Assembly: GCF_000757605.1 (NCBI RefSeq)
Contig: NZ_JQAK01000001.1
Location: forward strand, 1,142,782-1,166,781
Direction: 5' to 3'
Length of the DNA stretch: 24,000 nt
Source of the DNA: Candidatus Paracaedibacter symbiosus
Lineage (GTDB): Bacteria > Pseudomonadota > Alphaproteobacteria > Paracaedibacterales > Paracaedibacteraceae
Every line of letters starts with the position of its first letter. Within the stretch, counting starts at the first letter, position 1. The position numbers and the translations under genes are program-made. Below the pieces are notes generated by a model that ran no database searches, was not told the DNA's origin, and was given only the letters and a program-made list of their open reading frames with translations. Shown piece by piece: positions 1 to 23,837 of this stretch.

Positions 1-953
1 ATGGCTCCCCTGCTTACCCCCAGCCAGAATCACTTTTTGATATCGCTGTAGAAATGAAATTCACTCATTTTGGCACTTCTGCTAAGTTTATTGACAGTCT
101 AGCTAAGCAAGCTGTCGACATCACGACGTCCCATGATCTCTCATCGTTGCGGATGATTATGTCAACCGGCTCTCCCCTCGCACCGGAAAGCTTTGATTAT
201 GTCTATCAGCATATCAAAAAAAGTGTTTGTCTTGCTTCCATTTCTGGCGGCACCGATATTGTTTCGTGTTTCGCTTTAGGCAACCCGATTGCCCCTGTGT
301 GGCAAGGGGAGCTGCAAACACCCGGACTCGCAATGAATATTGCTGTGACTGATGAAACAGGCAAAATCTTGCCTCAAGGTAAGAAGGGAGAGTTGATCTG
401 TTTAACTCCTTTCCCGTCACAGCCCCTTGGTTTCTGGAACGATCCTGCCGGTGAAAAATATCACCATGCCTATTTTGCCAAATTCCCCGGCATCTGGCAT
501 CATGGTGATTTTGTTGAGTTGACTCCTCACAATGGCTTAATTATCCATGGACGTTCTGATGCCGTGCTAAATCCTGGAGGTGTGCGCATTGGCACAGCTG
601 AAATTTACCGCCAGGTGGAACAAATTAATGAGGTTTTGGAATGTATTGCGGTGGGGCAAAATTGGAATAATGATGTCCGTGTGGTTTTATTTGTTAAGCT
701 GAAAAATGGCATTGAATTAGATGAATTATTGGTCACAAAGATCAAACAACAAATTAAAATCAATACTACCCCCCGCCATGTTCCAGCTAAAATCATCCAG
801 ATCACCGACATTCCTCGTACTAAAAGTGGAAAAATTGCTGAAGTTGCAGTGCGTGATACAATCCATGGTCAAAAGATAAATAATAGCGAAGCTTTAGCTA
901 ATCCAGAAAGCTTAGAAGCTTATAAAAACATTTCTGAATTAACTAAAGATTGA
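1..953 (+). CDS. aacS: acetoacetyl-CoA synthetase (acetoacetate-CoA ligase), C-terminal part; 5' end lies outside the window
   Basis: Frame 3 is open from the window edge, with no stop between nt 3 and the first ATG at 54, so the gene is truncated by the window. The translation carries ANL adenylate-forming motifs: GGTDI, HGDF..HGRSDAVLNPGGVRIGTAEIY and PRTKSGKI. The GVRIGTAEIY block is as I recall it from acetoacetyl-CoA synthetases. Stop is TGA at 951-953. Confidence 0.75.
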   Translation, partial: GSPAYPQPESLFDIAVEMKFTHFGTSAKFIDSLAKQAVDITTSHDLSSLRMIMSTGSPLAPESFDYVYQHIKKSVCLASISGGTDIVSCFALGNPIAPVWQGELQTPGLAMNIAVTDETGKILPQGKKGELICLTPFPSQPLGFWNDPAGEKYHHAYFAKFPGIWHHGDFVELTPHNGLIIHGRSDAVLNPGGVRIGTAEIYRQVEQINEVLECIAVGQNWNNDVRVVLFVKLKNGIELDELLVTKIKQQIKINTTPRHVPAKIIQITDIPRTKSGKIAEVAVRDTIHGQKINNSEALANPESLEAYKNISELTKD

Positions 954-1561: not shown

Positions 1562-2554
1562 CTATTTTTCTGGGTGGTATTGATTAACTTTTTGATCAAT
1601 AGCGCCAAACACAGATTCCCCTTGTCGCGTCAGCATTTCGATGCGAATCTGATCACCAAACTTCATAAAGTCCGTTTTCGCCTGACCAGTTTCTATGATT
1701 TCGCGCATGCGTCGTTCGGCAATACAAGAAGATCCCTTGGTTGAATCAGCATTGGCGACAGTGCCTGAGCCCACAATCGTGCCTGCCCCTAAAAACCTGG
1801 TTTTTGCGGCATGAGCAATCAGATCAGGAAAGGAAAAAATCATATCAGTTCCTGCCTCTGGCGCGCCAAACGCTGTCCCATTTAAAGTGGAGCACAGCGG
1901 TAAATGAACACGCCCACCTTGCCAGGCTTGACCCAATTCATCCGGAGTAATCGCCACAGGAGAGAAACTCGATGCTGGTTTACTTTGATAAAATCCAAAC
2001 CCTTTAGCCAGTTCCCCTGGAATTAAATTGCGTAAAGACACATCATTGACAAGCGCCAATAGCTTGATGTGAGATAACGCCTCAGACGCCGAAACCCCCA
2101 TGGCCACATCATCAGTGATCACCACGATTTCTGCTTCAAAATCAATCCCCCAGGACTCATCAGCAACGATAATAGGATCCCTGGCCCCTAAAAGAATATC
2201 TGAGCCTCCTTGGTACATCAGCGGATCCGTCCAAAAACTGGCTGGCATCTCAGCGCCTCTGGCTTTACGCACTAACTCCACATGGGTAACATACGCGCTG
2301 CCATCGACCCACTGATAGGCGCGTGGCAAGGGTGCTGCCACAGATAATTCATTAAATGGTACAGCACCTTTCGCCTGCCCTTGATTGAGGGTCTCAGAGA
2401 GTTTTAACAAACTAACCTCAACATCCTCCCAATTATCTAAGGCTTGCTGGAGAGTTGCGGCAATGTCTCTCGCCTCAACAGCAAAGTTAAGACCTTTATC
2501 AACAACAAAAAGACAGCCATCACGGGTCCCATTGTTGATAGTTGCTACCTTCAT
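1562..2554 (-). CDS. fumarylacetoacetate hydrolase (FAH) family protein, probable fumarylacetoacetase of the homogentisate pathway
   Basis: 330 aa starting from MKVATINNG. The FAH-fold block GIDFEAEIVVITDD is present. The ATG at 2552-2554 overlaps the hmgA stop (ATGA), suggesting translational coupling. I prefer this start over the track start at 2575. Confidence 0.8.
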   Translation of the reverse strand: MKVATINNGTRDGCLFVVDKGLNFAVEARDIAATLQQALDNWEDVEVSLLKLSETLNQGQAKGAVPFNELSVAAPLPRAYQWVDGSAYVTHVELVRKARGAEMPASFWTDPLMYQGGSDILLGARDPIIVADESWGIDFEAEIVVITDDVAMGVSASEALSHIKLLALVNDVSLRNLIPGELAKGFGFYQSKPASSFSPVAITPDELGQAWQGGRVHLPLCSTLNGTAFGAPEAGTDMIFSFPDLIAHAAKTRFLGAGTIVGSGTVANADSTKGSSCIAERRMREIIETGQAKTDFMKFGDQIRIEMLTRQGESVFGAIDQKVNQYHPEK

Positions 2555-3690
2555 GGATACTGCTCCCCTTTCCAAGAATTGACATAGTTGAGATCCTCAA
2601 CGGACTCAGCCACCTTTGATAGATCAAGTCCATCCCGTGTGTCAATCATTACCGCAACCTCATCAGTTTCTTTGCGAATATTATTTTTTCCAGCCTTAAA
2701 AGCGCCTGGGTGAGGACCATGGATAAAACCACTGGGATGAAAGGTCATCATGCCGGGGTGGATATTATCGCGGCTAAAAAATTGCCCCTTATGATAAAAA
2801 ATCACCTCATCATAATCATCATTACTGTGATAAAAGGGAACTTTTAAGGCACCTGGGTCGGACTCAATGGGTCGAGGACAAAAGGTGCAAACCACAAACC
2901 GATCACTCGTAAAAGTTGTATGCGCCGAGGGCGGCAAATGGGCGCGGTGACTCATTAAAGGGCGAATGTCGCGCCAATTAATCTTAACTGGAGCTAAATT
3001 GCCATGCCAACCAACAGCATCCAAAGGATTAAACTTGAAAGTAATGGTGGAGATTTCCTGGCGACGCTTGACTTTTACTTGCCAGTGTTGCTGTGTCTGC
3101 TGTTGCTGAGCCTTAAAAGCCTCATTAATCTGAGGGGTGAGGAGCGTGGCTGGATCAAAAATCGCATGTCCCCCCACAATACCTTTTTCGGGCAGTTGAT
3201 AATGGCCGTCCGTGGCCTCAATCATCAAAATTTTTAAAGGTTTATGGACTTTAAGCCACCACTGAGTGCCGCGTGGCAACATCACATAATCACCCTCACT
3301 AAACTCTAAATGGCCATAGTCGCAAAAGAGATCAGCTGCACCCTCATGGAGGAACAATAGCTCGTCTCCATCGCTGTTACGCACCAAATGATCCATGCTT
3401 TTACAAACCCGTCACCACCGAATCTGGCAGTGAGAGTTGCTTAAAATAGGTGCTGCCTGCCAGGGGCTTACCGGTGTTGCATCAATCTTCAGCAGATCAA
3501 ACGCATGGGGTTTGAGAGTCCCTTCAATAGACGACCAGGCCGTGGGCGCATGTGTGTGATACATGTGCGTTGCGGGGCCAAAAAATCCTTCTTTACTGAT
3601 TTCGCGTTCATAAGTGCCTGCGGGCAAATCAGCATGAGCCTGTTTCGACGACAAACCTTCAGAGAGAGGAAATTGAATCCAAGACTTCAT
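2551..3690 (-). pseudogene. hmgA: homogentisate 1,2-dioxygenase interrupted by one in-frame TGA
   Basis: The 92-aa ORF (3412-3690) and the 281-aa ORF (2551-3396) are in the same frame. They are separated only by TGA (3412-3414) and 5 sense codons: ..CQIRW*RVCKSMDHLVRNSDGDELLF... The joined product of about 379 aa has HmgA-like blocks (RNSDGDELLF, GDYVMLPRGT, FHPSGFIHGPHPG). AAGGAG lies 9 nt upstream of the ATG at 3690. Confidence 0.8.
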
Positions 3691-3704
3691 CGGAAGCTTC
3701 TCCT

Positions 3705-4796
3705 TTAAATGACACCACGTGTTTCTTGATCCCGTTCCATTGCTTCAAACAAAGCAGAAAAGTTTCCTTCCCCAAATCCCTGATGGCCAAGGCGTTGGAT
3801 AATCTCAAAGAAAATTGGGCCAATGACCGTATTGGTGAAGATTTGCAAGAGTAAATCAACTTTTTTATCAATCACTTCGCCGTCCATCAAAATCTGATTT
3901 TTCGCCAGCCGCGCCATATCTTGACCATGATGGGGTAGGCGTTCTTCAACCACCTGATAGTACGAAGCCGGTACTGTCATAAATGGAATCTTATGCAGGG
4001 ACAATTGCTCAACTGAGTCAGCAATCGTGTCACTCCCCAACGCAATATGCTGAATCCCCTCGCCCTTATATTCATTTAAATATTCAGCAATTTGAGATTT
4101 ATCATCAGCTGATTCATTAATCGGGATACGGATTTTCCCACAGGGACTAATCATTGCTCGACTGAACAACCCGGTCTTTTGTCCTGTAATATTAAAATAG
4201 CGTTGCTGGCGGAAGTTAAATAATTTCTCATAAAAGTCAGCCCAGATATCCATCCGCCCCTGATAGACATTGTGCGTCAGGTGGTCAATATAGGTCAGGC
4301 CGAATCCCTTTGGATTCAAATCAACACCCGGAAAATAATCAAAATCTGTATCATAAATTGTGCGACCTCTATATTGGTCGACAAGAAATAAAAAGCTTTC
4401 ACCAATGCCGGAAAGGGCCGGAATATGGAGCTCTCCTTCGTTCACTGGCGTTTCAGCAGACTTGGCTCCAAGGGATAAAGCACGCATATGGGCAAACTTC
4501 GCATCAGCCACACGGAATGCCATGGCGCAAGCAGAAGGCCCATGTTCGGCTGCATAATAGGATGCATAAGTCCCAGGTTCCCGGTTAATCAAAAAATTGA
4601 TATCACCCTGACGATAGAGAGTGACTTGCTTGCTGCGATGTTTGGCGATAGGGACAAACCCCATGCGGCTAAAAAGATCTTCCAAATCCCCTTCATTGGG
4701 GCTAGTATATTCGACAAATTCAAATCCATCTGTTGCCATTGGATTTTCAAGTTCTGCGTGATCTTGGCCGTTAGCCACAAACGTTGAGTGCCTCAT
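3705..4796 (-). CDS. hppD: 4-hydroxyphenylpyruvate dioxygenase
   Basis: HPPD blocks GFEFVEYTSP, GIQHIALGSD and FFEIIQRLGHQGFGEGNFSALFEAMERDQ are present. The start at 4796 (MRHSTF..) has GAGGGG 5-10 nt upstream and lies downstream of the candidate promoter. The track start at 4865 would abut folK and has no RBS. Confidence 0.9.
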   Translation of the reverse strand: MRHSTFVANGQDHAELENPMATDGFEFVEYTSPNEGDLEDLFSRMGFVPIAKHRSKQVTLYRQGDINFLINREPGTYASYYAAEHGPSACAMAFRVADAKFAHMRALSLGAKSAETPVNEGELHIPALSGIGESFLFLVDQYRGRTIYDTDFDYFPGVDLNPKGFGLTYIDHLTHNVYQGRMDIWADFYEKLFNFRQQRYFNITGQKTGLFSRAMISPCGKIRIPINESADDKSQIAEYLNEYKGEGIQHIALGSDTIADSVEQLSLHKIPFMTVPASYYQVVEERLPHHGQDMARLAKNQILMDGEVIDKKVDLLLQIFTNTVIGPIFFEIIQRLGHQGFGEGNFSALFEAMERDQETRGVI

Positions 4797-4829
4797 TCTT
4801 ACCCCTCTTAGAAAAAACATCTTTCTTTG

Positions 4830-4858
4830 ATGGTAAGCAATCTTGCCAGCCACGTCAA
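4830..4858 (-). promoter_or_regulatory. candidate sigma70-type promoter of the hppD-hmgA-fah operon
   Basis: The minus strand reads TTGACG (4858-4853), a 17-nt spacer, then TACCAT (4835-4830). This sits about 30 nt upstream of the hppD ATG at 4796. Confidence 0.35.
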
Positions 4859-4866
4859 AAACCAAT

Positions 4867-5334
4867 TTAAGCCGCGGTCTTTTGTTTCAATAAGGTTAAT
4901 TTTTCCATTATTGTTGTCTTTGTGACTGGACAGATAAAGGTGGGGGCTAGTTCTGACATTAATGCCAAGATAAATTCCCGTTCATCATTATGAGGGTGGG
5001 GAATTTGAAGGATAGAATTCTTGAAAATCAACTGATCATAATAAAGCATATCAATATCAATCACCCGTGGTCCATAGCGATAGGTGGGGGTACGGCCCAT
5101 TTTTACTTCTATATTTTTAGTCACTTCCAGCAAATCTAAAACAGAAATAGTCGTTTCAATTTCAATAACTTGATTATAAAAATCTGGTTGTTCAGTCACA
5201 TACATTGGCTTGGTACACAAGACTGAGGACAAAGCAACCACCCTCACTTTTGTTTCAAGTTCGGTGATAGCACAGGCTAAATTACGGCGACAATCGCCTA
5301 AATTACTCCCAAGACCTAAATAAACAGTTGCCAT
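4867..5334 (-). CDS. folK: 2-amino-4-hydroxy-6-hydroxymethyldihydropteridine pyrophosphokinase (HPPK)
   Basis: 155 aa carrying the HPPK blocks YLGLGSNLGD, GPRVIDIDML and LQIPHPHNDEREF. AGGAG lies upstream of the ATG. Confidence 0.85.
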   Translation of the reverse strand: MATVYLGLGSNLGDCRRNLACAITELETKVRVVALSSVLCTKPMYVTEQPDFYNQVIEIETTISVLDLLEVTKNIEVKMGRTPTYRYGPRVIDIDMLYYDQLIFKNSILQIPHPHNDEREFILALMSELAPTFICPVTKTTIMEKLTLLKQKTAA

Positions 5335-5427: not shown

Positions 5428-5454
5428 ATCTCCTCAAAAATAAAGTAAGGAGAT
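5428..5454 (+). promoter_or_regulatory. hairpin that pairs the Shine-Dalgarno of the large flavoprotein gene with an upstream anti-SD
   Basis: atctcct (5428-5434) is the exact reverse complement of aggagat (5448-5454), with a 13-nt A-rich loop between. The 3' arm contains the AAGGAG that sits 8 nt before the TTG at 5461. Confidence 0.3.
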
Positions 5455-5460
5455 TGCCAC

Positions 5461-8400
5461 TTGGCTTATGCTCCGCACAATGACAGTATCTGGTTTTTGA
5501 AAAGCGAGCCGTCCACAACATTCAATTACATGAGTTTTGGCTTAAAAATGTCTGCATCAACAAACTTTTTATCACTTTCCTTTGGTTTATCATTTACTGA
5601 CCTCTACCACAATAGCGGTTTGAAGAAACTGGATACCTGTTTTCAAGACTTTTTAAGTGGTCAAGATCCTGAGTTAGGTGTGGCTTATCAATTTCACCGT
5701 CAAAACCCCACCGATGATAAAAGTGCGTCTGAGCTTTTTTTGACCCTTGCGCCTTATGTCGAAGATTTTATTGGCGAATTATTTCAGATTCGCCACGAAA
5801 TTAATGCGTTGCAGCAACAACATCAAACATTAGCCGTGGTGCCGCAGATCAAGCGCCAGTTTGTCCAACGTCAGGCTTTACGCAAATATTCTAAAGACAT
5901 AGCGGCAACGCTTGATGGCTCTCAAATTCGTGAGCAACTTGAAAAATCCATCCATCCTTTCACTGAGATAACCTTTGCCAGAATTGTGGATGAATGGCTG
6001 AAAAATGAATCCGCTCACCAAGAACAACTCAACCTTGCTGCACAATACGCCGCCTGGGCCACCTTAACACCCGCAGGGCGCTACTTTCATCGTCAGGATA
6101 TCTTATTCCAGCAACCAGAAAAGCTAGACTTCCAGAATTTGATCCCTTTCCATCTCATGGATGACTTTAAACAAGGTTTGTTGGATCATCGGCGCAACCG
6201 TGTCGGCTTTGATTTGACAGATGCTGGGTTTAGTCGTCTCAAAGCCCTTGATCAAGCGAACTATTGTATTTGGTGTCACCATCAGTCCAAGGATTCTTGC
6301 TCTAAGGGATTAAAACCAAAAACAGAGGCCACTGACAAGTTTATTAAAAATTGGGCTGGCATTAATCTCACCGGTTGCCCTTTGGAGGAGAAGATTTCAG
6401 AAATGAATGAATCAAAAGCCAAAGGATTTACTCTTGCTGCTCTTGCGATTGCGACCATTGATAATCCAATGGTTGCCGCCACGGGCCACAGAATTTGTAA
6501 TGACTGTATGAAGGCATGCATTTATCAAAAACAAGAACCAGTCAATATCCCTGGGCTGGAAACACAAATTCTTAAAGACGTTCTTGAGCTTCCGTGGGGT
6601 TTTGAAATTTATAGTCTGCTTACGCGCTGGAATCCATTAAACCTAAAGCGACCGCTGCCAATGGCTGAATCTGGGTATAAAGTGTTGGTGGTTGGAACTG
6701 GCCCTGCGGGCTTTACGCTGGCGCATCACCTTCTCAATGATGGTCATGCGGTTGTGGCCATTGACGGCCTTAAAATTGAACCTTTACCAGTGAATCAAAG
6801 TGGGGTGGACATTCAAGGGCAGCGACATCCCTTTGCTCCGATTTACTCCGTTAAAGAATTGCAAGAAAAGCTAGGAGCCCGTATCACAGGTGGCTTTGGT
6901 GGTGTGGCTGAATATGGCATCACCGTACGCTGGGATAAAAATTATCTCAAGATGATTCGCCTCTTGCTGGAGCGTCGGGAAAACTTTGCTCTGTTTGGTG
7001 GCATTCGGTTTGGCGGTACCCTTTCCATTGATCAAGCTTTTGCGATGGGGTTTGATCATATTGCCTTGTGCATGGGCGCTGGTAGCCCGACGTTAATTCC
7101 CATGAAAAATAGCTTAGCGATCGGTGTGCGTCAGGCCAGCGATTTCTTGATGGCATTGCAGCTAACGGGGGCAGCTAAAGAAGAATCTATTGCGAACCTT
7201 CAAGTTCGTCTGCCCGCCGTTGTCATTGGTGGTGGCTTGACCGCCATCGACACCGCTACTGAAACCATGGCCTATTATCCCCTGCAGGTGGAAAAGTTCT
7301 ATAAACGCTACCAACAGCTTTGCCAAACACAAAACGAAACTCAGTTACGCAGTCAATGGTTAGAGAGCGAGCTTGTCATCGTCGATGAGTATTTAACCCA
7401 CGGCGCCGCGATTGTCGCTGAAAGTCAAGCCGCTGCCATTGAGGGTCGCCAACCCAACTTCCAGCGTTTGATCAACGAATGGGGGGGAGTCACCGTCGCT
7501 TATCGCCGCGATGTGACTCAGGCGCCAAGCTATACGCTCAACCACGAAGAAGTGGCAATAGCCTTGGAAGAAGGTATCCAAATCCTCGACCACGCGATAC
7601 CGATATCGGTTAATATTGATGCGGCAGGCCAAGCTGAATCCCTTACCATCCAGCACCTGGATCAAGAGCAGATTTTACCAGCACGGACGATTTTGGTGGC
7701 TGCTGGGACCAAACCCAACATTAACTTGAAGTATGATGAGCTCAACTACCTTTCCTTTGCGGGAAATAGTTTCCAAGCTTATGATGAGGCAGGGCATCCG
7801 GTCACGCCCCAAAAACTTGCCAAGCCAGATACACCGCATGTATTGATGTCGATTCTGGATAATCAAAAATCCATCAGCTTTTTTGGAGATATGCATCCCT
7901 CTTTTGCCGGCAACGTGGTGAAAGCGATGGGAAGTGCAAAACAAGGCTACCCTGTTATTTCGCGCATGTTGCACCGTCGTCCTGTAGATAAGGAGGTGCC
8001 AGCTCCTCTATTGATTGACTCCCTCAACCAGCAATTGCGCGCCACAGTTTATGCCATCACAAGACTAACCCCAACAATTGTTGAGGTTACTATTCACGCT
8101 CCCTTGGCAGCCCGGAATTTCCAACCAGGACAATTCTACCGCCTCCAAAATTTTGAAACTTTTGCCCCCGTTCGCAAGGGCACACGATTTGTAATGGAAG
8201 GTTTAGCCCTCACTGGCGCCAGTGTTGATCTTGAGAAAGGCTTGCTATCAACGATTGTACTTGAGATGGGTGGTTCTTCTAATCTGTGCACCCTTCTACA
8301 CCCAGGGGATCCTGTGGTGTTAATGGGTCCCACTGGCGCACCTACGGAAATCCCCCACAATGAGACAGTGTTGCTGGCAGGCGGTGGCCTGGGCAATGCC

Positions 8401-8997
8401 GTGCTTTTTTCTATCGGCCAAGCGCTTCGCGCTAACGGTTGCCGGGTCATTTATTTTGCTGGCTATAAAAAAATGGAAGATCGTTATAAAATAGCGGAGA
8501 TCGAAATGGCAGCTGATCAGATTGTTTGGACCTGCGATGAAGCCCCAGGGTTTATTCCTTCCCGTCCCCAGGACTTAACCTTTGTGGGGAATATCGTTGC
8601 AGCCATGGAAGCTTATGCCAAAGGTGATTTAGGTCAAAGGTTAGTACCGCTGCATGATGTGCAACGTCTCGTTGCTATTGGATCTGACCGCATGATGGCC
8701 GCCATTGCCAAAGCCCGTAAAACCATTCTCAAGCCTTACTTAGATCCGGATCACATTGGCATTGGGAGCATCAACTCTCCGATGCAATGTATGATGAAAG
8801 AAATATGCGCTCAGTGCCTCCAACGTCACGTTGAACCTCTCACCGGCGAAGAAAAGATTATCTATTCTTGTTCGCAACAAGACCAAAAACTTGACTGGGT
8901 TGACTGGGATAATCTGAATATACGGTTGCGCCAAAATAGCGTTCAAGAAAAACTCACGAAAGAATGGATTCGTTATTGCTTGGAAATCGATACCTAA
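5461..8997 (+). CDS. large multidomain Fe-S flavoprotein: uncharacterised N-terminal domain + GltD/NfnB-like domain + PyrK/NfnA-like domain
   Basis: The ORF is uninterrupted for 1178 codons. The GltD-type Cys pattern is CIWCHH..C..GCPLEEKI..NP..GHRICNDCMKACI. Dinucleotide folds are VVGTGPAGF and VVIGGGLTAIDTA. The C-terminal third resembles a PyrK/FNR-like module (RLTPTIVEV.., LLAGGGLGNAVL) ending in C-x6-C-x2-C-x17-C. The start is uncertain: TTG 5461 has AAGGAG 8 nt upstream, and the alternatives ATG 5530 and 5548 lack an SD. Confidence 0.7.
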   Translation: MAYAPHNDSIWFLKSEPSTTFNYMSFGLKMSASTNFLSLSFGLSFTDLYHNSGLKKLDTCFQDFLSGQDPELGVAYQFHRQNPTDDKSASELFLTLAPYVEDFIGELFQIRHEINALQQQHQTLAVVPQIKRQFVQRQALRKYSKDIAATLDGSQIREQLEKSIHPFTEITFARIVDEWLKNESAHQEQLNLAAQYAAWATLTPAGRYFHRQDILFQQPEKLDFQNLIPFHLMDDFKQGLLDHRRNRVGFDLTDAGFSRLKALDQANYCIWCHHQSKDSCSKGLKPKTEATDKFIKNWAGINLTGCPLEEKISEMNESKAKGFTLAALAIATIDNPMVAATGHRICNDCMKACIYQKQEPVNIPGLETQILKDVLELPWGFEIYSLLTRWNPLNLKRPLPMAESGYKVLVVGTGPAGFTLAHHLLNDGHAVVAIDGLKIEPLPVNQSGVDIQGQRHPFAPIYSVKELQEKLGARITGGFGGVAEYGITVRWDKNYLKMIRLLLERRENFALFGGIRFGGTLSIDQAFAMGFDHIALCMGAGSPTLIPMKNSLAIGVRQASDFLMALQLTGAAKEESIANLQVRLPAVVIGGGLTAIDTATETMAYYPLQVEKFYKRYQQLCQTQNETQLRSQWLESELVIVDEYLTHGAAIVAESQAAAIEGRQPNFQRLINEWGGVTVAYRRDVTQAPSYTLNHEEVAIALEEGIQILDHAIPISVNIDAAGQAESLTIQHLDQEQILPARTILVAAGTKPNINLKYDELNYLSFAGNSFQAYDEAGHPVTPQKLAKPDTPHVLMSILDNQKSISFFGDMHPSFAGNVVKAMGSAKQGYPVISRMLHRRPVDKEVPAPLLIDSLNQQLRATVYAITRLTPTIVEVTIHAPLAARNFQPGQFYRLQNFETFAPVRKGTRFVMEGLALTGASVDLEKGLLSTIVLEMGGSSNLCTLLHPGDPVVLMGPTGAPTEIPHNETVLLAGGGLGNAVLFSIGQALRANGCRVIYFAGYKKMEDRYKIAEIEMAADQIVWTCDEAPGFIPSRPQDLTFVGNIVAAMEAYAKGDLGQRLVPLHDVQRLVAIGSDRMMAAIAKARKTILKPYLDPDHIGIGSINSPMQCMMKEICAQCLQRHVEPLTGEEKIIYSCSQQDQKLDWVDWDNLNIRLRQNSVQEKLTKEWIRYCLEIDT

Positions 8998-9503
8998 ATA
9001 ACCTGAAGGGATGATAGTATATCAATTTGATAAGCTCCAATTCCCTATCATTATGGACTTCAACAAAGAGAACATGGGGATATTGCGCTTTTATAGTTTG
9101 TAGCTGGTTATGTACCCGAGGTTCAAATCTCCACGTATAGGTGAGCAATTTCCAGGAAATAACTTCAGGGCAATTATCTGCCCGATCTTGAATACTGTGA
9201 TCTTTGAAAAAGCGTCGCTTCAAAACACGGTAGAAACATAAGGTTTTTGGAAAGTCAAAATAAAGTGCAAGGTCAGCCTTTGCATAACGCATCGCCAACG
9301 ACCTTGTACAGTTCTCATCAATAATTAATCCAGCAATCTTGAGCGACCAACTTTCGCTGAATTTCTAAAAACTCAGCTTCGTCACGTTCAACCCAGTTTT
9401 CGATGAAAAAATAACGATCAAGATGATAGAGGGGAATTCCAGTTTGATGACACAACTGTTTGGCAAAGGTCGATTTGCCGCTCTCTGGACGACCAAAGAT
9501 CAT
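8954..9503 (-). pseudogene. P-loop NTPase (adenylate-kinase-like / topology-modulation FlaR-like family) disrupted by a 1-nt frameshift
   Basis: The N-terminal ORF (9318-9503) has Walker A GRPESGKST and ends ..DCWINY*. The next ORF (8954-9298) continues the family pattern in another frame. A frame read across 9321-9335 gives ..LIIDENCTRSLAMRYAKADL.., so a single indel in the attaattatt run restores one protein of about 180 aa. Confidence 0.6.
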
Positions 9504-9510
9504 TATCCGC

Positions 9511-12658: not shown

Positions 12659-13513
12659 CTATTTCTTCAAATCTTTTACTTCTTGTTTGAGCTTTTGAAT
12701 CTCGTGCAGCAATATTTTTGTTTCTGCAGAAATATGATGTTGCTCTTCTTCTGAAGTATGGTCGCCCTTCAACCATTTGGCGAAGAAATGATGCTTGGCA
12801 ACGTGTTCTTCCTCAGCATGTTGGCGCATAAGTGCTCCAATCACAATTCCAAAAACCAATTGCAGCAATAGGAAGTTTAAAACGATAATCATCGGTACAA
12901 CAAAAACCCAAGCATAGGGCGTTGTTTTGGAAAGTTCTGCTAATTGATCCGACCAAGTATGCTCCATCATCACTGATTTGAAGATAGTGATCATTGCTCC
13001 CCAAATAGTACCATACATTTCAGGGTGATCTGCGCCAAAACAAGCCATACCAAGAAGGGCAAAAATATACACAGCAACAAACATCAGCACAGCTGTTGAA
13101 ACCAGGTGGGGAATCGCTTTACCAATAGCATCCACAATATGTTGGAACTGCGGAAATATGGACACAAGACGCAATAACCAAAACAGCCTAAAAGCTCGGA
13201 ATAATTGGAAATAACCACCGAAAGAAATTAAAGATACGATAATGACGACAAAATCGAAAACATGCCAAGGATCCTTAAAGAACGCTGGACCATGAGCAAT
13301 AATTCGAGCAACTATTTCAATAGTAAAAACAACCACTACTAGGCGGTTAAATAGAAAAACTGCGTGGGCCAAACCTTCTGTTTGTGTTGTTGACAGTTCA
13401 TAGCCAATACTGAAAATACTGAGGATCAGTAAAGCCGTCAGAGCCACATGATAAGAGTGGCTTTCGAAAAATGCCCCTAACTTTTCTCTAAAATTTTGTG
13501 CATGGGGTGTCAT
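12659..13513 (-). CDS. voltage-gated ion channel family protein (single 6-TM domain, BacNaV-like) with C-terminal coiled coil
   Basis: The protein aligns without gaps by eye to recalled NavAb/NaChBac from FFKDPW through PYAWVF. The S4-like segment is FRAFRLFWLLRLV. The pore region is IFKSVMMEHTWSDQ. The tail is heptad-like (ILLHEIQKLKQEVKDLKK). I prefer the ATG at 13513 (GAGG 5 nt upstream) over the track TTG at 13561. Confidence 0.75.
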   Translation of the reverse strand: MTPHAQNFREKLGAFFESHSYHVALTALLILSIFSIGYELSTTQTEGLAHAVFLFNRLVVVVFTIEIVARIIAHGPAFFKDPWHVFDFVVIIVSLISFGGYFQLFRAFRLFWLLRLVSIFPQFQHIVDAIGKAIPHLVSTAVLMFVAVYIFALLGMACFGADHPEMYGTIWGAMITIFKSVMMEHTWSDQLAELSKTTPYAWVFVVPMIIVLNFLLLQLVFGIVIGALMRQHAEEEHVAKHHFFAKWLKGDHTSEEEQHHISAETKILLHEIQKLKQEVKDLKK

Positions 13514-13588
13514 AATAACCTCGATAATAGGGTACTTCTCTCCCCAAGTATAGAATTCCAAGGTTAATAAAAGGTTAATGAAAAAAAC

Positions 13589-15963: not shown

Positions 15964-16887
15964 TTACAAAATATCGCCCCACTCTCGTTTGCTTATTTTT
16001 TTATAAAGATCTTTATGTTTACGAGCGATAATAAAACGTTTCAGATGATGGGGTTCGCACACATCAAAAATAGAATGACCAGATCGGTGAATCGGATTTT
16101 TAACAATACGCAAACCGGGGAACTCAGTTGGATCTTTAGACAGTAAGAGATAACAAAATTTCTCATCTTCAAAGTTCAAAGCCGCTTTTTTAAATGCGCG
16201 ATGCAATCTGGTGCGCGGCAATCTTACCTTAAAATGACACCAAGGGTCTTTCGCCATCGGGCAAGTTTGGTGATGAGAACAAGGAGCAGCAATCCGATAT
16301 CCAGAGGCCAGCGCCAGACCACGCAAGCCCAACAACTGCTTAAAGCATAATGGAGTCCCTGGCATTACAATCAATACATAGCGACTCTGACTTAGCAGAA
16401 CTCTCTCAAGGACTTGGCTCTGCTCCTCCCCCTTCAACTCATTCAAAACATAGGATAAAATGACAAAATCTGTGGGTTGATCGATGACATATTCTTTTAG
16501 ATTTGCGCGTAAGTAGCTACCCGCCTTACTTAAAGGCTCAAGCAGTTGCCTGGCGGCAGCAAGAGCTCGTCCATCCTGTTCCACCAATTTGAAGTGGGTC
16601 ACATTTGGAAAATACGTCAAAGCAGTTAGACTTGCTGCTCCAGTCCCTGCTCCTAAGTCAAGAATTGAGGTGGGGGAAAAGTCGGCGGGGAGTTCTCGAA
16701 AGATCTGAGAAATAGCAGCAACGGTTGCGGGCATCCGCGCAGCTGCATAGGCTTTTACTTCCCCATCGCTTTGAAATCCAGGGATATAGTTTTCCTGACG
16801 ATAGCGGTGGCTAAGCCCCTGGTAAGCTTTGAGAAGCTGATCATCCGAATATCCGGCAAGCAGTTCTTCTAACCACTGATCAAGCAT
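15964..16887 (-). CDS. Rsm22-family SAM-dependent methyltransferase (bacterial homolog of mitochondrial Rsm22/METTL17)
   Basis: 307 aa. The SAM motif I is ILDLGAGTGAAS. The Rsm22-type block is APCSHHQTCPMAKDPWCHFKVRLPRTRLHRAFKK..FEDEKFCYLLLSK. The ATG lies 2 nt after the iscX stop. Confidence 0.75.
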   Translation of the reverse strand: MLDQWLEELLAGYSDDQLLKAYQGLSHRYRQENYIPGFQSDGEVKAYAAARMPATVAAISQIFRELPADFSPTSILDLGAGTGAASLTALTYFPNVTHFKLVEQDGRALAAARQLLEPLSKAGSYLRANLKEYVIDQPTDFVILSYVLNELKGEEQSQVLERVLLSQSRYVLIVMPGTPLCFKQLLGLRGLALASGYRIAAPCSHHQTCPMAKDPWCHFKVRLPRTRLHRAFKKAALNFEDEKFCYLLLSKDPTEFPGLRIVKNPIHRSGHSIFDVCEPHHLKRFIIARKHKDLYKKISKREWGDIL

Positions 16888-16889
16888 AT

Positions 16890-17084
16890 CTAGCCTCGCT
16901 CATCCAGCCAGGCCATTTGAATCGCTTCCAAAATCTTCTCATTAGAGCGATTTGGCTCATCTGTAAAACCCGGCAGTTGTTGCACCCATTGCCAAAGCGT
17001 TGTAAAGCGTACTTGCAAGATGTCCACGTCTGGATGCATCTCTTCCAACTCAATGGCAATCTCGTGGATATCTGTCCAACGCAT
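16890..17084 (-). CDS. iscX: Fe-S assembly protein IscX
   Basis: 64 aa starting from MRWTDIHEIAIEL. It matches recalled E. coli IscX blocks (WTD..EI, VRFT..W, SNEKILEAI..WLDE). The ATG at 17084 lies 2 nt after the fdx stop. The track start at 17165 would overlap fdx. Confidence 0.85.
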   Translation of the reverse strand: MRWTDIHEIAIELEEMHPDVDILQVRFTTLWQWVQQLPGFTDEPNRSNEKILEAIQMAWLDERG

Positions 17085-17086
17085 AC

Positions 17087-17416
17087 TTAGACCATCATAT
17101 TCCGTGTTGCAGCAGGCAGGCGCACAACCAAACCATCCAATTCTTCTGTCATAATAATTTGACAACCCAAGCGAGATGTATGGGTTAAGCCAAAAGCCAA
17201 ATCCAACATATCCTCTTCATCCTCCGAGGCTGTGCTGAGCAAATCATACCATTCTGACTCAACAATCACATGACAGGTTGAACAAGCAAGTGAACCTTCA
17301 CAGGCCCCTTCTAAATCAATTTTATTACGGTGAGCAATTTCTAACACTGACAAGCCCAAGGGAGCATCAACTTCCACAGAGTGGCCATCCCGCACAATAA
17401 ATGTCATTTTTGCCAT
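17087..17416 (-). CDS. fdx: ISC-type [2Fe-2S] ferredoxin (adrenodoxin-like)
   Basis: 109 aa with the ligand pattern [12 protein letters not shown] ... RLGCQI. The ATG lies 1 nt after the hscA stop. Confidence 0.9.
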
Positions 17417-17417
17417 T

Positions 17418-19208
17418 TTATAATTCTCCTATTTTTTGACCGGCAAGCGCCCGCTGAATACTGCGGTTAATGCGGCGTTCGGCAAATGAAAAACTTAAAG
17501 TTTCTAATTCTTGCATGCCCTGTTTTATCGCATTCCGATCCTCAAATACCACTATTTTTTCAAGGGACTCAATCGCTTGCTGTAAAGCTTCCTGCTCTTC
17601 TATAGTTAGCAAGTCCCCATCCTGGACAATCGCCCCTTTGAGCTGGACTAACATTTGACGAGCGTCCACTCTTGCTTCAATCAACAATCGCTGTTCCATA
17701 TCAGCGGCTCCATGTTCAAAATTATCGCGCAAATGCTGAATCATCTCGGCATCGCTTAAGCCATAAGCTGGATTAATTTCAATCTGTTGACTTTGTCCCG
17801 TCGCCATTTCCTTGGCCATCACAGTCAACAATCCATCCGCATCTAATTGAAAAGTGACGCGTACCTTCGCTGCACCTGCTGCCATCGGCGGGATGCCAGT
17901 CAGCGTAAACTGACCTAAGGATCGACAGTCTTTCACTAGCTCTCGCTCCCCTTGAAGCACATGAATTTGCATGGCGGCCTGACCATCTTGATAGGTGGTA
18001 AATTCTTGGGCAATGGCAACAGGAATTGGCGTATTACGCTCAATAATCTTTTCCACAATACCACCCATGGTTTCAAGACCTAACGATAACGGCGTGATAT
18101 CTAATAGCAATGTATCCGAGCCCCGCGTTAAGGCTTCTGCTTGCAACGCTGCTCCTAAGGCCACCACTTCATCGGGATTGATATCGGTTAAAGGAATTTT
18201 ACCAAAAAAGGAAGCCACTTCCTGGCGGACGACCTGCAGGCGTGTCGAACCACCCACCAGAATAACGCCATCGATATTACGCGGATCAAGCCCTGCATCC
18301 CTTAGTACCTGGCCACAAATCTGAAGCGTTTTTGCCACAAGCAGCTGACATAACTCAGTTAATTTTTGTTGGGTTAGAGTGATTGTATGCCCTTTAATCG
18401 CAAGCGACGTCATCTGGTGGTTTGCCAACATTTCTTTGAGTTCACGGGCTATCGTTGGCGTAATGCTATCGGCAACGGTTGGATAGGTTTCTTGTAAATA
18501 ATGCTGCACAAGATAGTCCACATCATCGCCGCCCAGAAGGGTATCCCCGCCCGTGGCCAACACCTGAAAGACACCGCGAGTGAACTTCAATAATGAGACA
18601 TCAAATGTACCACCCCCAAAGTCATAGACGGCATAAACACCTTCCACTTGTTTGTCAAGACCGTACGCCAAAGCAGCAGCGGTTGGTTCATTGATGAGGC
18701 GCAAAACCTCTAACCCGGCGAGTTTTGCGGCTTGTTTTGTTTCCTGACGTGCGGCTTCATCAAAATAAGCTGGTACTGTAATCACCGCTTTATGGACGGT
18801 TTGCCCCAGAACATTTTCGGCATTTTGGCGAATCACTTTTAAGATCTCAGCAGAAATCTCAGAAGGGGTTAGCTCTCGATCCTTAATTTTCAATTTAAGT
18901 GCTTTATGGGAAACAACCGCATCTGGGTAATGCGACATTAAGTCTTCAGGAACTGTTTGTCGGCCAATGAGGCGCTTAATCGATTGAATTGCGAAGGCCC
19001 TTTTTTCCCCAACGACAACTTCATCACCATAACTGACAATCGACGGCAACAACTTTTTTCCTGTGTCAAAAGCAAGGACTGTTGGCGTTTGGTTTGTTGC
19101 ATAAGCGACAACAGAATGGGTTGTGCCAAGGTCAATACCGATGGCGATTTCTTTTTCAGCTTCGTGAAGGTCGGGTGTCATTCCCGGTTCGACAAGTTGG
19201 ATAAACAT
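17418..19208 (-). CDS. hscA: Fe-S cluster assembly Hsp70 chaperone HscA
   Basis: 596 aa. The N-terminus [12 protein letters not shown] resembles HscA (E. coli MALLQISEPG). Hsp70 motifs [19 protein letters not shown] and ILVGGSTR are present. Confidence 0.9.
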
Positions 19209-19373
19209 TATTTTTTAAAACTACTATACTCATCAGGGTTGGAATTGCGGATTTATACTATCGAGATAGGCGGCGACTTTTATTGTGGTGTGACGCGAAT
19301 AGTTGTCCCTCTTTAAGGAGCGTCAAGATAAAATTGAGCCTATACATCGATGGGGAGAAATTCTTAGCTTCAG

Positions 19374-19859
19374 TCATGATGAGTATTCCAGTTCACTCAA
19401 CGTTTTTTGTGTATAAATCAGATTTAGGTAACAGTGAGCCAGCTGATCATCTGGCGCGGTATCAAAACATTGAAGACAATCCTGCAGACGGAGCGTGAGC
19501 TCGTCTTTTAGGGCATGCAACCCGGTGCCTTCTTGAATCTGCTCACGCCATTCAAGAACTTGTCCCAACAAATCAGACGCTGGAATTGTCGCACCACTCG
19601 TCCCCGGCACAGGGATATTTTTTGCCTTTAAAAATTCTTCTGCGCGGGTGGGGACATTTTTCAGACGCTGATAGGCCTCATTCAAAGTAATCGCTTGTTG
19701 CGCCGCAAGCCGCTTTTCAAGATCACTACGCCCAACAAATAAATCCGGATGCACTGTTGCTTGCGCCGCTAAATAGCGTTGGTCCAAAGCAACTACGTCT
19801 AAATCAAACTGAACCGGTAAGCCAAAGAGGGCGAACATATTAGATTTAATTCCTGTCAT
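19374..19859 (-). CDS. hscB: Fe-S cluster co-chaperone HscB (J-domain)
   Basis: 161 aa. The J-domain has the HPD tripeptide (ATVHPDLF). The gene sits between iscA and hscA. AAGAGG lies 8 nt upstream of the ATG. Confidence 0.85.
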   Translation of the reverse strand: MTGIKSNMFALFGLPVQFDLDVVALDQRYLAAQATVHPDLFVGRSDLEKRLAAQQAITLNEAYQRLKNVPTRAEEFLKAKNIPVPGTSGATIPASDLLGQVLEWREQIQEGTGLHALKDELTLRLQDCLQCFDTAPDDQLAHCYLNLIYTQKTLSELEYSS

Positions 19860-19985
19860 CTTATAGCCTCTTCTCTTGTCACTGTTCCTATCCGTGCTAT
19901 CATCCCACGCCTTTGAAGAAAGTGGAATGATCCAGGTATTTTTAATTGTCCCATGGTTTCATGCTGTGCACTAACCCTCGGGAGT

Positions 19986-20321
19986 TTAAACATGGAACGA
20001 TTTACCACACCCGCAACGACCTTTTTCATTGGGGTTTTTAAAGACAAATCCCGATTGCATTTTTTCCTCAACAAAGTCCATTTCAGTACCCAGGATAAAC
20101 ATAATCGCCTTGGGGTCAATCAACAGAGTAATCCCCTCTACTTCGACCATCTCATCAAAAGCTGTTTTTTCATCAGCGTATTCCAAGGTATAAGACAAGC
20201 CAGAGCATCCTTTAGTGCGGATGCTAATCCGAATCCCGGCTGACTCTTTACCTCGTTGATCGAGGAGAGCTCTAAGCCTGAGAAGTGCTGCCTCTGTCAC
20301 TTGTATGGGTACTGTTCGCAT
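19986..20321 (-). CDS. iscA: A-type Fe-S carrier IscA
   Basis: 111 aa with the HesB/IscA Cys pattern KGCSGLSY ... CGCGKSF. Confidence 0.9.
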   Translation of the reverse strand: MRTVPIQVTEAALLRLRALLDQRGKESAGIRISIRTKGCSGLSYTLEYADEKTAFDEMVEVEGITLLIDPKAIMFILGTEMDFVEEKMQSGFVFKNPNEKGRCGCGKSFHV

Positions 20322-20345
20322 GTCTAAATCCCCTCAAATCCTTTT

Positions 20346-20741
20346 TTAAGCAATCTTCGTGATTTGATTTTTTTGCTTATAGTCATCAATCGCTGCTTTA
20401 ATTGCATCTTCTGCCAAAATGGAGCAGTGAATCTTCACCGGCGGTAATGCCAAATGCTGAGCAATGTCAGAGTTCTTAATGGCATGCGCTTCGTCGATTG
20501 ACTTGCCACGAACCCATTCAGTCACCAGAGAACTGGAGGCAATCGCCGCGCCACAACCAAATGTCTTGAATTTGGCATCTTCAATAATCCCAGCTTCATT
20601 GACTTTAATTTGCAATTTCATCACATCGCCACAAGCAGGCGCCCCCACTAAGCCCGTGCCAACGGAGGCATCAGACTTGTCAAAGGACCCCACGTTACGT
20701 GGATTTTCGTAGTGATCAATAACTTTATCATTATAAGCCAT
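20346..20741 (-). CDS. iscU: Fe-S cluster scaffold IscU
   Basis: 131 aa. Blocks are YENPRNVG, GAPACGDVMKL, FGCGAAIASSS and the LPPVK..HCS motif. Confidence 0.95.
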   Translation of the reverse strand: MAYNDKVIDHYENPRNVGSFDKSDASVGTGLVGAPACGDVMKLQIKVNEAGIIEDAKFKTFGCGAAIASSSLVTEWVRGKSIDEAHAIKNSDIAQHLALPPVKIHCSILAEDAIKAAIDDYKQKNQITKIA

Positions 20742-20790
20742 GTTTATCTCTCCACTCTAAAAATTGGTTTTCTTTTCTTAACATCAATAA

Positions 20791-23608: not shown

Positions 23609-23837
23609 CCTATTCCTCGCCAAACGTCTCGATATTTAGGTGCATTCCTACTCAAGATCTATTATTCCGTGACAATCTTTCTCCTCTATTCCTAAGAGGA
23701 TTACCATGTCTTCTAACGCAGCCTCACCCTAACGTATCTTCCTGGCTTAAAATCTCTAGTTCACAGATTCAAAAAGCCGTGTTAGACTCTGTCTTAGCAA
23801 GGTGATATTATACCTAATTCTAGTTTGTCTTTAGTTA

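What the first reader, a model, noticed from the sequence alone, without database searches (positions are those of the whole stretch)
5461..8997. 1178-codon single-polypeptide fusion of NfnB/GltD-like and NfnA/PyrK-like modules behind an unknown ~265-aa N-terminal domain
One uninterrupted ORF combines three parts. (i) About 265 aa with no motif I recognise (LSFGLSFTDLY.., largely helical by composition). (ii) A GltD/NfnB-type module with two Cys clusters (about 6264-6520) and two Rossmann GxGxxG motifs. (iii) A PyrK/FNR-type module (from about 8030) ending in a C-x6-C-x2-C-x17-C 2Fe-2S-like motif (about 8786-8880). In the NfnAB, SudAB and DHOD-B/PyrK systems these modules are separate subunits. 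Here they are fused in B-then-A order with an extra domain, predicting up to three Fe-S clusters and two flavins in one chain. The substrate and physiological role cannot be read from context, since the neighbours are folK and a decayed NTPase.
Basis: partly seen in the sequence, partly recalled or inferred. Interest (0 to 1): 0.65.

Follow-up and report, generated by a model that had tools for sequence, protein, structure and literature searches.

The report
Single-chain Nfn-like iron-sulfur flavoprotein (RP005 family)
The long gene is real and intact. It belongs to a widespread, already catalogued but never characterised family of fused Nfn-like iron-sulfur flavoproteins from aerobic bacteria, and gene neighbourhoods elsewhere suggest it feeds NADPH electrons, via ferredoxin, to sulfite reductase.

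Summary
Window 5461-8997(+) is one 1178-codon ORF with three parts: a ~245-aa helical N-domain, an NfnB/GltD-like module (7 invariant Cys, two dinucleotide folds, NADPH-type YRR) and an NfnA/PyrK-like module ending in an invariant four-Cys 2Fe-2S motif. HMMs and a confident AlphaFold model (pLDDT 87, pTM 0.89; target TM 0.75-0.82 to NfnI/NfnAB chains) confirm both modules.

The architecture is not new. It is the PRK06567 / Pfam PF27156 'RP005_N' family, noted in 2013 as a 'chimeric GltD-UbiB' of Rickettsiales. B-then-A fused Nfn homologs are also described in the literature. Full-length relatives at 55-83% identity occur in at least 591 species of Alpha-, Beta-, Gamma- and Zetaproteobacteria, Acidobacteriota and Planctomycetota.

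I found no experimental work on the family. The N-domain occurs only in this architecture and has no PDB fold relative.

New lead: in 12 of 80 reference loci the gene lies beside, and often in an apparent operon with, ferredoxin-type sulfite reductase and cysH/D/N. In 6 of 80 it lies near a 7Fe ferredoxin gene (immediately upstream in 4).

Best reading: an NADPH-driven, ferredoxin-level reductase, possibly the missing electron source for CysJ-less sulfite reductases. Verdict: new member of a known, uncharacterised kind; moderate interest.

The parts
5461..8997 (+). Whole ORF, 1178 codons from TTG including the stop. Alternative starts are ATG 5530 (database call, 1155 aa) and ATG 5548 (homology).
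5447..5452 (+). AAGGAG Shine-Dalgarno, 8 nt upstream of the TTG start
   Evidence: read directly
5569..6261 (+). N-terminal all-helical domain (ORF residues ~37-267), Pfam PF27156 RP005_N. Found only at the N-terminus of this architecture. No PDB fold relative.
6262..6645 (+). GltD/NfnB/DPD-type dicluster domain. The 7 invariant Cys (269, 272, 280, 306, 346, 349, 353) are predicted to hold two [4Fe-4S] clusters. There is a 25-residue insertion between the 3rd and 4th Cys.
6676..7950 (+). NfnB-like FAD plus NADPH module (Pyr_redox_2). Contains GTGPAG at 6694-6711, GGGLTAID from 7228, the NADPH-type YRR at 7501-7509, and a ~80-aa helical insertion after the second Rossmann motif.
8032..8760 (+). 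NfnA/PyrK-type FNR-like FAD/NAD(P)-binding module (ORF residues ~858-1100). GGGLGNA is present. 'MEGLALTGA' stands where NfnA has 'ERIPLT'.
8788..8871 (+). C-x5-C-x2-C-x17-C motif (Cys 1110, 1116, 1119, 1137), predicted all-Cys [2Fe-2S]. The first Cys takes the place of the Asp ligand of NfnA.
4867..5334 (-). folK (HPPK), the divergent upstream neighbour. Adjacency is shared only with the related Odyssella genome, so it is not a functional link.
8954..9510 (-). Decayed P-loop NTPase/kinase pseudogene, convergent with the ORF. Its 3' end overlaps the last 44 nt of the ORF.

Best explanation
The gene encodes an intact member of the RP005/PRK06567 family, a single-chain relative of the NfnAB/SudAB/GltD iron-sulfur flavoproteins.

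Inferred mechanism:
1. NADPH binds the NfnB-like module (GGGLTAID plus YRR) and reduces its FAD.
2. Electrons leave through the two [4Fe-4S] clusters of the dicluster domain toward a low-potential one-electron acceptor. This is a ferredoxin (the 7Fe FdxA type in some lineages) or a ferredoxin-type partner enzyme.
3. The C-terminal NfnA-like module (all-Cys [2Fe-2S], a second flavin/NAD(P) site) provides a second pyridine-nucleotide branch. This would allow Nfn-style bifurcation: 2 NADPH + NAD+ + 2 Fd(ox) -> 2 NADP+ + NADH + 2 Fd(red).
4. The family-specific helical N-domain precedes the dicluster domain in the chain, and that domain is where Nfn docks ferredoxin. The N-domain is therefore proposed to be a partner-docking or cluster-shielding module suited to aerobic cells.

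Proposed physiological role: supply of ferredoxin-level electrons in aerobes. In several lineages this would specifically feed the CysJ-less, ferredoxin-type (NirA/Sir-family) assimilatory sulfite reductase.

Shown: the architecture, ligand conservation, structural similarity, phyletic breadth and gene linkage.
Inferred: every catalytic step, the acceptor, bifurcation, and the role in the window organism itself.
For: Family and architecture:
- NF005128 PRK06567 matches at E = 7.6e-240 over residues 38-1008.
- PF27156 RP005_N plus Pyr_redox_2 are precomputed on the window's own protein and on all relatives.

Nfn likeness:
- Sequence hits to NfnI small and large chains and to T. maritima NfnA/B.
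- AlphaFold model with pLDDT 86.8 and pTM 0.89.
- Foldseek: 5jfc_L E = 1e-18, target TM 0.75; 5jca_S 0.82; 4ylf_B 0.75; 4ylf_A 0.78.

Cofactor sites:
- 11 Cys invariant in 120/120 homologs.
- GxGxxG, GGGLTAID, YRR and GGGLGNA are invariant or nearly so in 75 sequences.

Selection: 55-83% identity over 97% of the length across at least 4 phyla.

Gene linkage:
- 12 of 80 reference loci carry NirA-family SiR and/or CysH, CysD, CysN(C) within 6 kb. The gene follows cysN(C) with a 0-4 nt gap in L043, L048, L050 and L053.
- These loci span at least 5 lineages whose proteins are only 56-69% identical to each other.
- Siroheme-synthesis genes or DUF934 lie in the same clusters.
- 2 of 3 further divergent members show the same arrangement, with independent gene calls.
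- 7Fe FdxA lies immediately upstream on the same strand in 4 loci and within 4 kb in 2 more.
- L045 combines cysG-DUF2849-cysI-DUF934-cysH with fdxA followed by the family gene.

Literature: the electron source of CysI in cysJ-less bacteria is an open gap (10.1101/072470). C. glutamicum places a dedicated ferredoxin reductase gene, fpr2, in its cysI cluster (PMC1266029 title and abstract).
Against: - No experimental data exist for any family member.
- About 79% of the 80 reference loci show no cys or fdx linkage, and there is no universally conserved neighbour.
- The window has no sulfur-assimilation gene next to the ORF.
- Rickettsia species keep the gene although, to my knowledge, they do not assimilate sulfate, so sulfite reduction cannot be the only role.
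- The [2Fe-2S] has four Cys, not the Asp+3Cys of NfnA. The flavin-binding Arg of the NfnA 'ERIPLT' motif is Gly here. The redox landscape may therefore differ, and bifurcation is unproven.
- Identity to NfnAB is only about 20%.
- Price et al. did not report this family among genes cofit with cysI. I could not check whether their organisms encode it.
Confidence: 0.55

Rival explanations
1. Direct CysJ analogue. The protein docks onto the sulfite reductase hemoprotein itself, perhaps N-domain to the ~180-aa C-terminal extension of these SiRs or via DUF2849/DUF934. It passes electrons from its distal [4Fe-4S] cluster without any free ferredoxin.
For: The gene lies in tight apparent operons with cysN(C) and SiR. 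The SiRs in these clusters are 700-754 aa and carry an unannotated C-terminal extension. The N-domain is unique to the family and precedes the dicluster domain. Most cys-linked loci have no ferredoxin gene nearby.
Against: FdxA is the immediate upstream neighbour in four other loci, including L045, which also has cysI. The SiRs score best as ferredoxin-type NirA family. The family persists in genomes and loci without any cys genes.
Confidence: 0.2
2. Self-contained reductase of an unknown small-molecule substrate. The N-domain would be a catalytic or substrate-binding domain that receives electrons from the Fe-S chain, as the GltB or DPD catalytic domains do. The cys and fdx linkage would be secondary.
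For: The N-domain has a set of invariant polar and aromatic residues: Y26, H98, R109, W156, Y173, W176, R224 and D231 (P0001 numbering). It has a confident, unique fold. GltD-type modules commonly serve as electron-input units for a catalytic partner (established knowledge of GltD and DPD; structural matches).
Against: The N-domain has no metal- or cofactor-binding motif and no Cys. It has no fold relative from which to infer chemistry. No recurrent metabolic neighbour other than the cys and fdx genes was found.
Confidence: 0.15
3. Non-bifurcating housekeeping NAD(P)H oxidoreductase or transhydrogenase (SudAB/Xfn-like, or a plain NADPH:ferredoxin reductase) that serves general needs such as radical-SAM enzymes or Fe-S biogenesis. 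This would explain its retention in reduced Rickettsiales genomes.
For: [quoted passage not shown] It occurs in small genomes with housekeeping neighbours. The all-Cys [2Fe-2S] is PyrK-like rather than Nfn-like. Xfn (5vj7) is as good a structural match as NfnI.
Against: This largely overlaps with the best explanation and differs only on bifurcation and specificity. It does not account for the repeated operon-level linkage to sulfate assimilation.
Confidence: 0.1

Closest known systems
RP005 / NCBIfam NF005128 (PRK06567) 'putative bifunctional glutamate synthase subunit beta/2-polyprenylphenol hydroxylase'; Pfam PF27156 RP005_N
   Same: The full-length N-domain + NfnB-like + NfnA-like architecture is the same. 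The match is collinear over residues 38-1008, E = 7.6e-240. PF27156 is annotated on this very protein.
   Different: The score of 799 bits is below the narrow equivalog cutoff of 1072, and 8 other non-Rickettsia relatives tested also fall below it. The window protein is about 120-150 aa longer than the 1031-position model. The family has no experimentally known function.
[quoted passage not shown]
   Same: Both modules are present with the same folds (target TM 0.75-0.82). It has 7 Cys in the dicluster domain, as I recall for NfnB (7 Cys + Glu). The FAD and NADPH Rossmann motifs, the YRR motif, and the FNR-like module with a C-terminal 2Fe-2S motif are all present.
   Different: It is one chain in B-then-A order. 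It has an extra ~245-aa N-domain, a ~80-aa helical insertion in the NADPH domain, and a 25-residue insertion in the first Cys motif. The 2Fe-2S is all-Cys instead of Asp+3Cys, and Gly stands in place of the Arg of 'ERIPLT'. Identity is only about 20%. The hosts are aerobes, whereas the Nfn literature knows essentially one aerobe with a homolog (PMC6405883).
Fused Nfn homologs: Pattern B (A-then-B, Clostridium autoethanogenum type; PRK12778) and Pattern C (B-then-A; PRK12779), per Liang et al. 2019
   Same: These are also single-polypeptide fusions of the two Nfn modules. Pattern C has the same B-then-A order, and all are uncharacterised.
   Different: Scores are far below the cutoffs: PRK12778 122 bits against 1103, and PRK12779 92 bits against 1519. 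Those families lack the RP005_N domain and are about 200-400 aa shorter.
CysJ (diflavin flavoprotein of NADPH-sulfite reductase) and C. glutamicum Fpr2 (+CysX)
   Same: The proposed role is the same: an NADPH-dependent electron source encoded within or next to the cysI-cysH-cysD-cysN cluster.
   Different: The fold and cofactors are unrelated. There is no flavodoxin/FMN domain, and an Fe-S chain is present instead. The role here is inferred from gene linkage only.
GltD (glutamate synthase small subunit) and dihydropyrimidine dehydrogenase N-terminal half
   Same: They share the dicluster + FAD + NADPH module.
   Different: No GltB or DPD catalytic partner or domain is present in the protein or in any of the loci examined. 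The extra NfnA-like module is absent from GltD and DPD.

Membership tests
RP005 / PRK06567 family | Collinear full-length match to NF005128 | tested here: inconclusive
   E = 7.6e-240 and 798.7 bits over residues 38-1008, but the equivalog cutoff is 1072 bits. All 8 other non-Rickettsia relatives tested also fall below it. It is therefore a member of the wider family, not of the narrow equivalog.
RP005 / PRK06567 family | PF27156 RP005_N domain at the N-terminus, followed by Pyr_redox_2 | tested here: met
   The precomputed Pfam annotation of P0001 (100% identical, the window's protein) lists PF27156 and PF07992. The N-domain alone retrieves 980 clusters, always at the N-terminus of ~1000-1200-aa proteins or in fragments.
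NfnAB (bifurcating transhydrogenase) | NfnB-type module: two [4Fe-4S] motifs, FAD and NADPH folds | tested here: met
   7 invariant Cys, GTGPAG, GGGLTAID and YRR. Target TM is 0.75 to 5jfc_L and 4ylf_B.
NfnAB (bifurcating transhydrogenase) | NfnA-type FNR-like module | tested here: met
   E = 3e-12 to 5jca_S and 6e-12 to 4ylf_A. Target TM is 0.82 and 0.78.
NfnAB (bifurcating transhydrogenase) | [2Fe-2S] ligated by Asp + 3 Cys (the ligation is recalled from the Nfn structures) | tested here: not met
   There are four invariant Cys. The first Cys lies at the position of the Asp in the alignment to 5jca_S.
NfnAB (bifurcating transhydrogenase) | Heterodimer of two separate subunits, 40-90% identity to C. 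kluyveri NfnAB (the criterion used in PMC6405883) | tested here: not met
   It is a single chain with about 20% identity to Nfn chains.
NfnAB (bifurcating transhydrogenase) | NAD+-dependent NADPH:ferredoxin oxidoreductase activity (flavin-based bifurcation) | not testable with these tools
   This needs enzyme assays.
Fused Nfn 'Pattern C' / PRK12779 | Match to NF009415 above its cutoff | tested here: not met
   91.8 bits against a cutoff of 1519, and only the C-terminal module aligns well.
Glutamate synthase small subunit (GltD) | TIGR01317/TIGR01318 above cutoff and an associated GltB large subunit | tested here: not met
   47.6 and 39.9 bits against cutoffs of 448 and 483. No GltB-like neighbour was seen in the window or in the fetched loci examined.
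CysJ-type sulfite reductase flavoprotein | Flavodoxin-like FMN domain plus FAD_binding_1/NAD_binding_1 | tested here: not met
   No such Pfam or NCBIfam hits were found. Only the functional analogy is proposed.

The most novel reading that the evidence does not exclude
The RP005 family is an overlooked, oxygen-compatible branch of flavin-based electron-bifurcating Nfn enzymes. It would use NADPH (with NAD+ as co-acceptor) to generate reduced ferredoxin in aerobic bacteria. It would be the long-missing 'CysJ' for the ferredoxin-type, DUF2849/DUF934-associated sulfite reductases of cysJ-less Alpha- and Betaproteobacteria. Its structurally novel N-domain would act as the docking or shielding module.
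Probability: 0.22. Interest if true: 0.75.

Novelty: new member of a known kind. Interest (0 to 1): 0.45.

Why it matters
The window gene itself is one more copy of a catalogued family, so the architecture is not a discovery. The family, however, is large, strongly conserved across phyla, retained in reduced endosymbiont genomes, and has never been studied.

If the inference is right, three things follow:
- It would extend Nfn-type chemistry from anaerobes into aerobes. The Nfn literature lists essentially one aerobe with a homolog.
- It would name a candidate for the unknown electron donor of CysI in bacteria that lack CysJ, a gap explicitly noted in large-scale fitness work.
- It would assign a role to a new helical fold (RP005_N).

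All three are directly testable with one recombinant protein and one knock-out.

Tried and rejected
- Frameshift or fusion artefact: rejected. The same single ORF occurs in at least 591 reference species and thousands of proteins.
- Stand-alone N-domain proteins: 102 of the top 150 N-domain hits were shorter than 700 aa. The ones inspected end inside conserved motifs or have frameshifted tails, so they are fragments.
- Functional link to folK: adjacency is shared only with the related Odyssella genome, which also shares the AMP-binding, aldolase and ABC genes, so it reflects synteny by descent. It is absent elsewhere.
- N-domain as a ferritin-like or di-iron domain (suggested by the PRK12775 trifunctional family): there are no conserved ExxH pairs and no fold match.
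- Fold search of the N-domain against the PDB found nothing (best E = 4, TM at most 0.19).
- Small upstream ORFs of 140-165 aa in several high-GC loci are unrelated to each other and probably spurious, apart from FdxA.
- Two 'family' ORFs upstream in L011 and L070 had no Pfam hit and are probably spurious.
- Literature searches for RP005, PRK06567, GltD-UbiB, Nfn + sulfite reductase, and DUF934 found no characterisation of this family.
- Link to the ISC operon in the window (8 kb away): not adjacent and not recurrent in other loci, so treated as coincidence.
- I could not retrieve a bona fide Rickettsia sequence or the model coordinates. The Rickettsia context and inter-cofactor distances were therefore not examined.


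Full report
**1. Observation**

Window 5461-8997 (+) is a single ORF of 1178 codons starting at TTG. An AAGGAG Shine-Dalgarno at 5447-5452 lies 8 nt upstream of that TTG. The database gene call for the identical protein starts at ATG 5530 (P0001, 1155 aa), and alignment with close homologs would also allow ATG 5548. None of these choices alters the architecture.

folK lies at 4867-5334(-). A P-loop gene (GRPESGKST) broken by stop codons and a frameshift lies at about 8954-9510(-).

**2. Module identities**

- Pfam gives Pyr_redox_2 (406-759, E = 1e-10) and Fer4_20 (304-371, 24.7 bits, just under the 25.8 cutoff).
- PDB sequence searches hit the small NfnI subunit and T. maritima NfnA over residues 867-1030 (E = 3e-12 and 6e-12). 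They hit the large NfnI/NfnB/GltD chains over the middle part.
- An AlphaFold2 model built on 75 homologs is confident and compact (pLDDT 86.8, pTM 0.89).
- Foldseek places the middle module on NfnI-L, Xfn and NfnB (E = 1e-18 to 2e-16, target TM 0.74-0.76). It places the C-terminal module on NfnI-S and NfnA (target TM 0.78-0.82). GltD and DPD follow.
- All 7 Cys of the dicluster domain and all 4 C-terminal Cys are invariant in 120/120 homologs.
- GxGxxG, GGGLTAID, the NADPH-type YRR and GGGLGNA are invariant or nearly so in 75 sequences.

Differences from Nfn:
- One chain in B-then-A order.
- A 25-residue insertion in the first Cys motif.
- A ~80-aa helical insertion after the second Rossmann motif.
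- 'MEGLALTGA' where NfnA has 'ERIPLT'.
- An all-Cys 2Fe-2S motif in which a Cys replaces the Asp ligand of NfnA.

**3. The family is already catalogued**

- NCBIfam NF005128 (PRK06567, 'putative bifunctional glutamate synthase subunit beta/2-polyprenylphenol hydroxylase') matches residues 38-1008 at E = 7.6e-240 and 799 bits. This is below the narrow equivalog cutoff of 1072. Eight other non-Rickettsia relatives are also below it.
- The precomputed Pfam annotation of the window's own protein lists PF27156, named RP005_N.
- Driscoll et al. [quoted passage not shown]
- Liang et al. 2019 (PMC6405883) review fused Nfn homologs, including a B-then-A 'Pattern C', all of them uncharacterised. The present protein is not that family: it scores 92 bits against PRK12779, whose cutoff is 1519.

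No experimental characterisation of the family was found.

**4. Distribution**

Full-length homologs at 59-83% identity fill the top of a search that hit the 8000-candidate scoring cap. The best 80 come from the following groups, all at 55-61% identity:
- Acidobacteriota (Bryobacteraceae, Terriglobia).
- Alphaproteobacteria (Stellaceae, Reyranella, Azospirillum, Rickettsiales, Paracaedibacteraceae, Xanthobacteraceae, Caulobacteraceae).
- Betaproteobacteria (Nitrosomonas, Nitrosovibrio, Gallionella, Burkholderiales).
- Gammaproteobacteria (Nevskia).
- Zetaproteobacteria (Mariprofundus).
- Planctomycetota.

These are largely aerobes or microaerophiles, whereas the Nfn literature names one aerobe with an Nfn homolog. 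The window organism is probably a relative of Paracaedibacteraceae/Odyssella. The best named hits are 65-66% identical, and several neighbouring genes are shared with Odyssella.

**5. The N-domain**

The N-domain alone retrieves 980 clusters (at 50% identity). The domain always sits at the N-terminus of ~1000-1200-aa proteins. The shorter hits inspected end inside conserved motifs or have frameshifted tails, so they are fragments.

A separate model of the domain is confident over helices 22-186 but has no PDB fold relative (best E = 4, TM at most 0.19). It has no Cys and no obvious metal motif. It does carry invariant polar and aromatic residues.

**6. Function from context**

The window gives no clue. 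Its neighbours are tyrosine catabolism genes, folK, a pseudogene, an aldolase and an ABC exporter. An ISC operon lies 8 kb away. Across 80 reference loci there is no universal neighbour. Two recurrent neighbourhoods do stand out.

(a) Sulfate assimilation. In 12 of 80 loci, sulfate-assimilation genes lie within 6 kb. In most of them the order is NirA/Sir-family siroheme reductase, (siroheme synthesis gene or DUF934), cysH, cysD, cysN(C), then this gene.
- The gap after cysN(C) is 0-4 nt in L043, L048, L050 and L053.
- These loci come from Rickettsiales MAGs, Nitrosomonadaceae and several other alphaproteobacterial lineages. Their family proteins are only 56-69% identical between groups.
- Two of three additional divergent members, looked up with independent gene calls, show the same arrangement, with a 4-nt overlap in L088.

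(b) Ferredoxin. A 7Fe FdxA-type ferredoxin gene lies immediately upstream on the same strand in 4 loci and within 4 kb in 2 more.

L045 combines both: cysG-DUF2849-cysI-DUF934-cysH lies convergent with fdxA followed by the family gene. A ~6-kb cys cluster or a single fdxA gene should lie within 6 kb of a random gene in well under 1% of genomes (my estimate). The linkage is therefore far above chance.

**7. Interpretation**

The SiRs in these clusters score best as ferredoxin-type NirA family. They occur with DUF2849 or DUF934, the hallmarks of cysJ-less sulfate assimilation. For that system, Price et al. state that the electron source is unknown (10.1101/072470). C. glutamicum sets a precedent by placing a dedicated ferredoxin reductase gene (fpr2) in its cysI cluster (PMC1266029).

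The best-supported reading is an NADPH-oxidising, Nfn-like reductase that delivers ferredoxin-level electrons. The acceptor would be FdxA or the SiR directly, with a second pyridine-nucleotide site that could allow bifurcation.

The caveats are substantial:
- There are no experimental data.
- Most loci show no such linkage.
- Rickettsia keeps the gene although, to my knowledge, it has no sulfate assimilation.
- The 2Fe-2S ligation differs from Nfn.
- Nothing shows that the window organism has a cysI.

**8. Verdict**

The gene is a new member of a known but uncharacterised kind. Interest is moderate. It comes from the family-level hypothesis (Nfn-type chemistry in aerobes, a candidate missing CysJ, a new fold), not from the architecture in this window.

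Noticed in passing
window 8954-9510 (-): A P-loop NTPase/kinase gene (GRPESGKST...) is interrupted by stop codons after ~64 codons and continues in another frame (ORF 8954-9298). It is a pseudogene whose 3' end overlaps the end of the target ORF.
   Followed up: partly
window 2551-3690 (-): The homogentisate 1,2-dioxygenase ORF (2551-3396) lacks the first ~137 positions of the HgmA_N profile. A 92-aa ORF in another frame just upstream (3412-3690) may be the missing part, although it has no Pfam hit. This is a possible frameshifted gene inside an hppD-hmgA-fahA tyrosine-catabolism cluster (1562-4865).
   Followed up: partly
window 54-953 (+): This ORF encodes only the C-terminal third of an AMP-binding (acyl-CoA synthetase-like) enzyme, after an in-frame stop near the window start. 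Together with the two items above, it suggests ongoing gene decay, as in endosymbionts.
   Followed up: no
window 16890-23623 (-): A complete ISC Fe-S assembly operon: iscR, two cysteine desulfurases, iscU, iscA, hscB, hscA, a 2Fe-2S fdx and an IscX-like ORF. It lies 8 kb from the target gene and is not recurrent near the family elsewhere.
   Followed up: partly
window 15964-16887 (-) and 12659-13561 (-): An Rsm22-family methyltransferase (the mitochondrial small-subunit ribosomal protein family) and a voltage-gated-type Ion_trans channel protein.
   Followed up: no
L011 3733-5901, L044 5-2116, L052 177-2441, L069 3079-5313: The NirA/Sir-family sulfite reductases linked to the family gene are 700-754 aa. 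They carry a ~180-aa C-terminal extension with no Pfam match, which could be a docking region.
   Followed up: no
L001 (Odyssella acanthamoebae CP008941) versus the window: Shared neighbours (AMP-binding enzyme, HPPK, the family gene, Aldolase_II, ABC exporter) indicate that the window comes from a relative of the Paracaedibacteraceae/Odyssella amoeba symbionts.
   Followed up: partly
L087 5928-6935 and L088 4675-5154; L043 1202-1642: Small conserved-position ORFs without Pfam hits lie inside the cys clusters, between the sulfate-activation genes and the family gene. They might be further accessory components.
   Followed up: no
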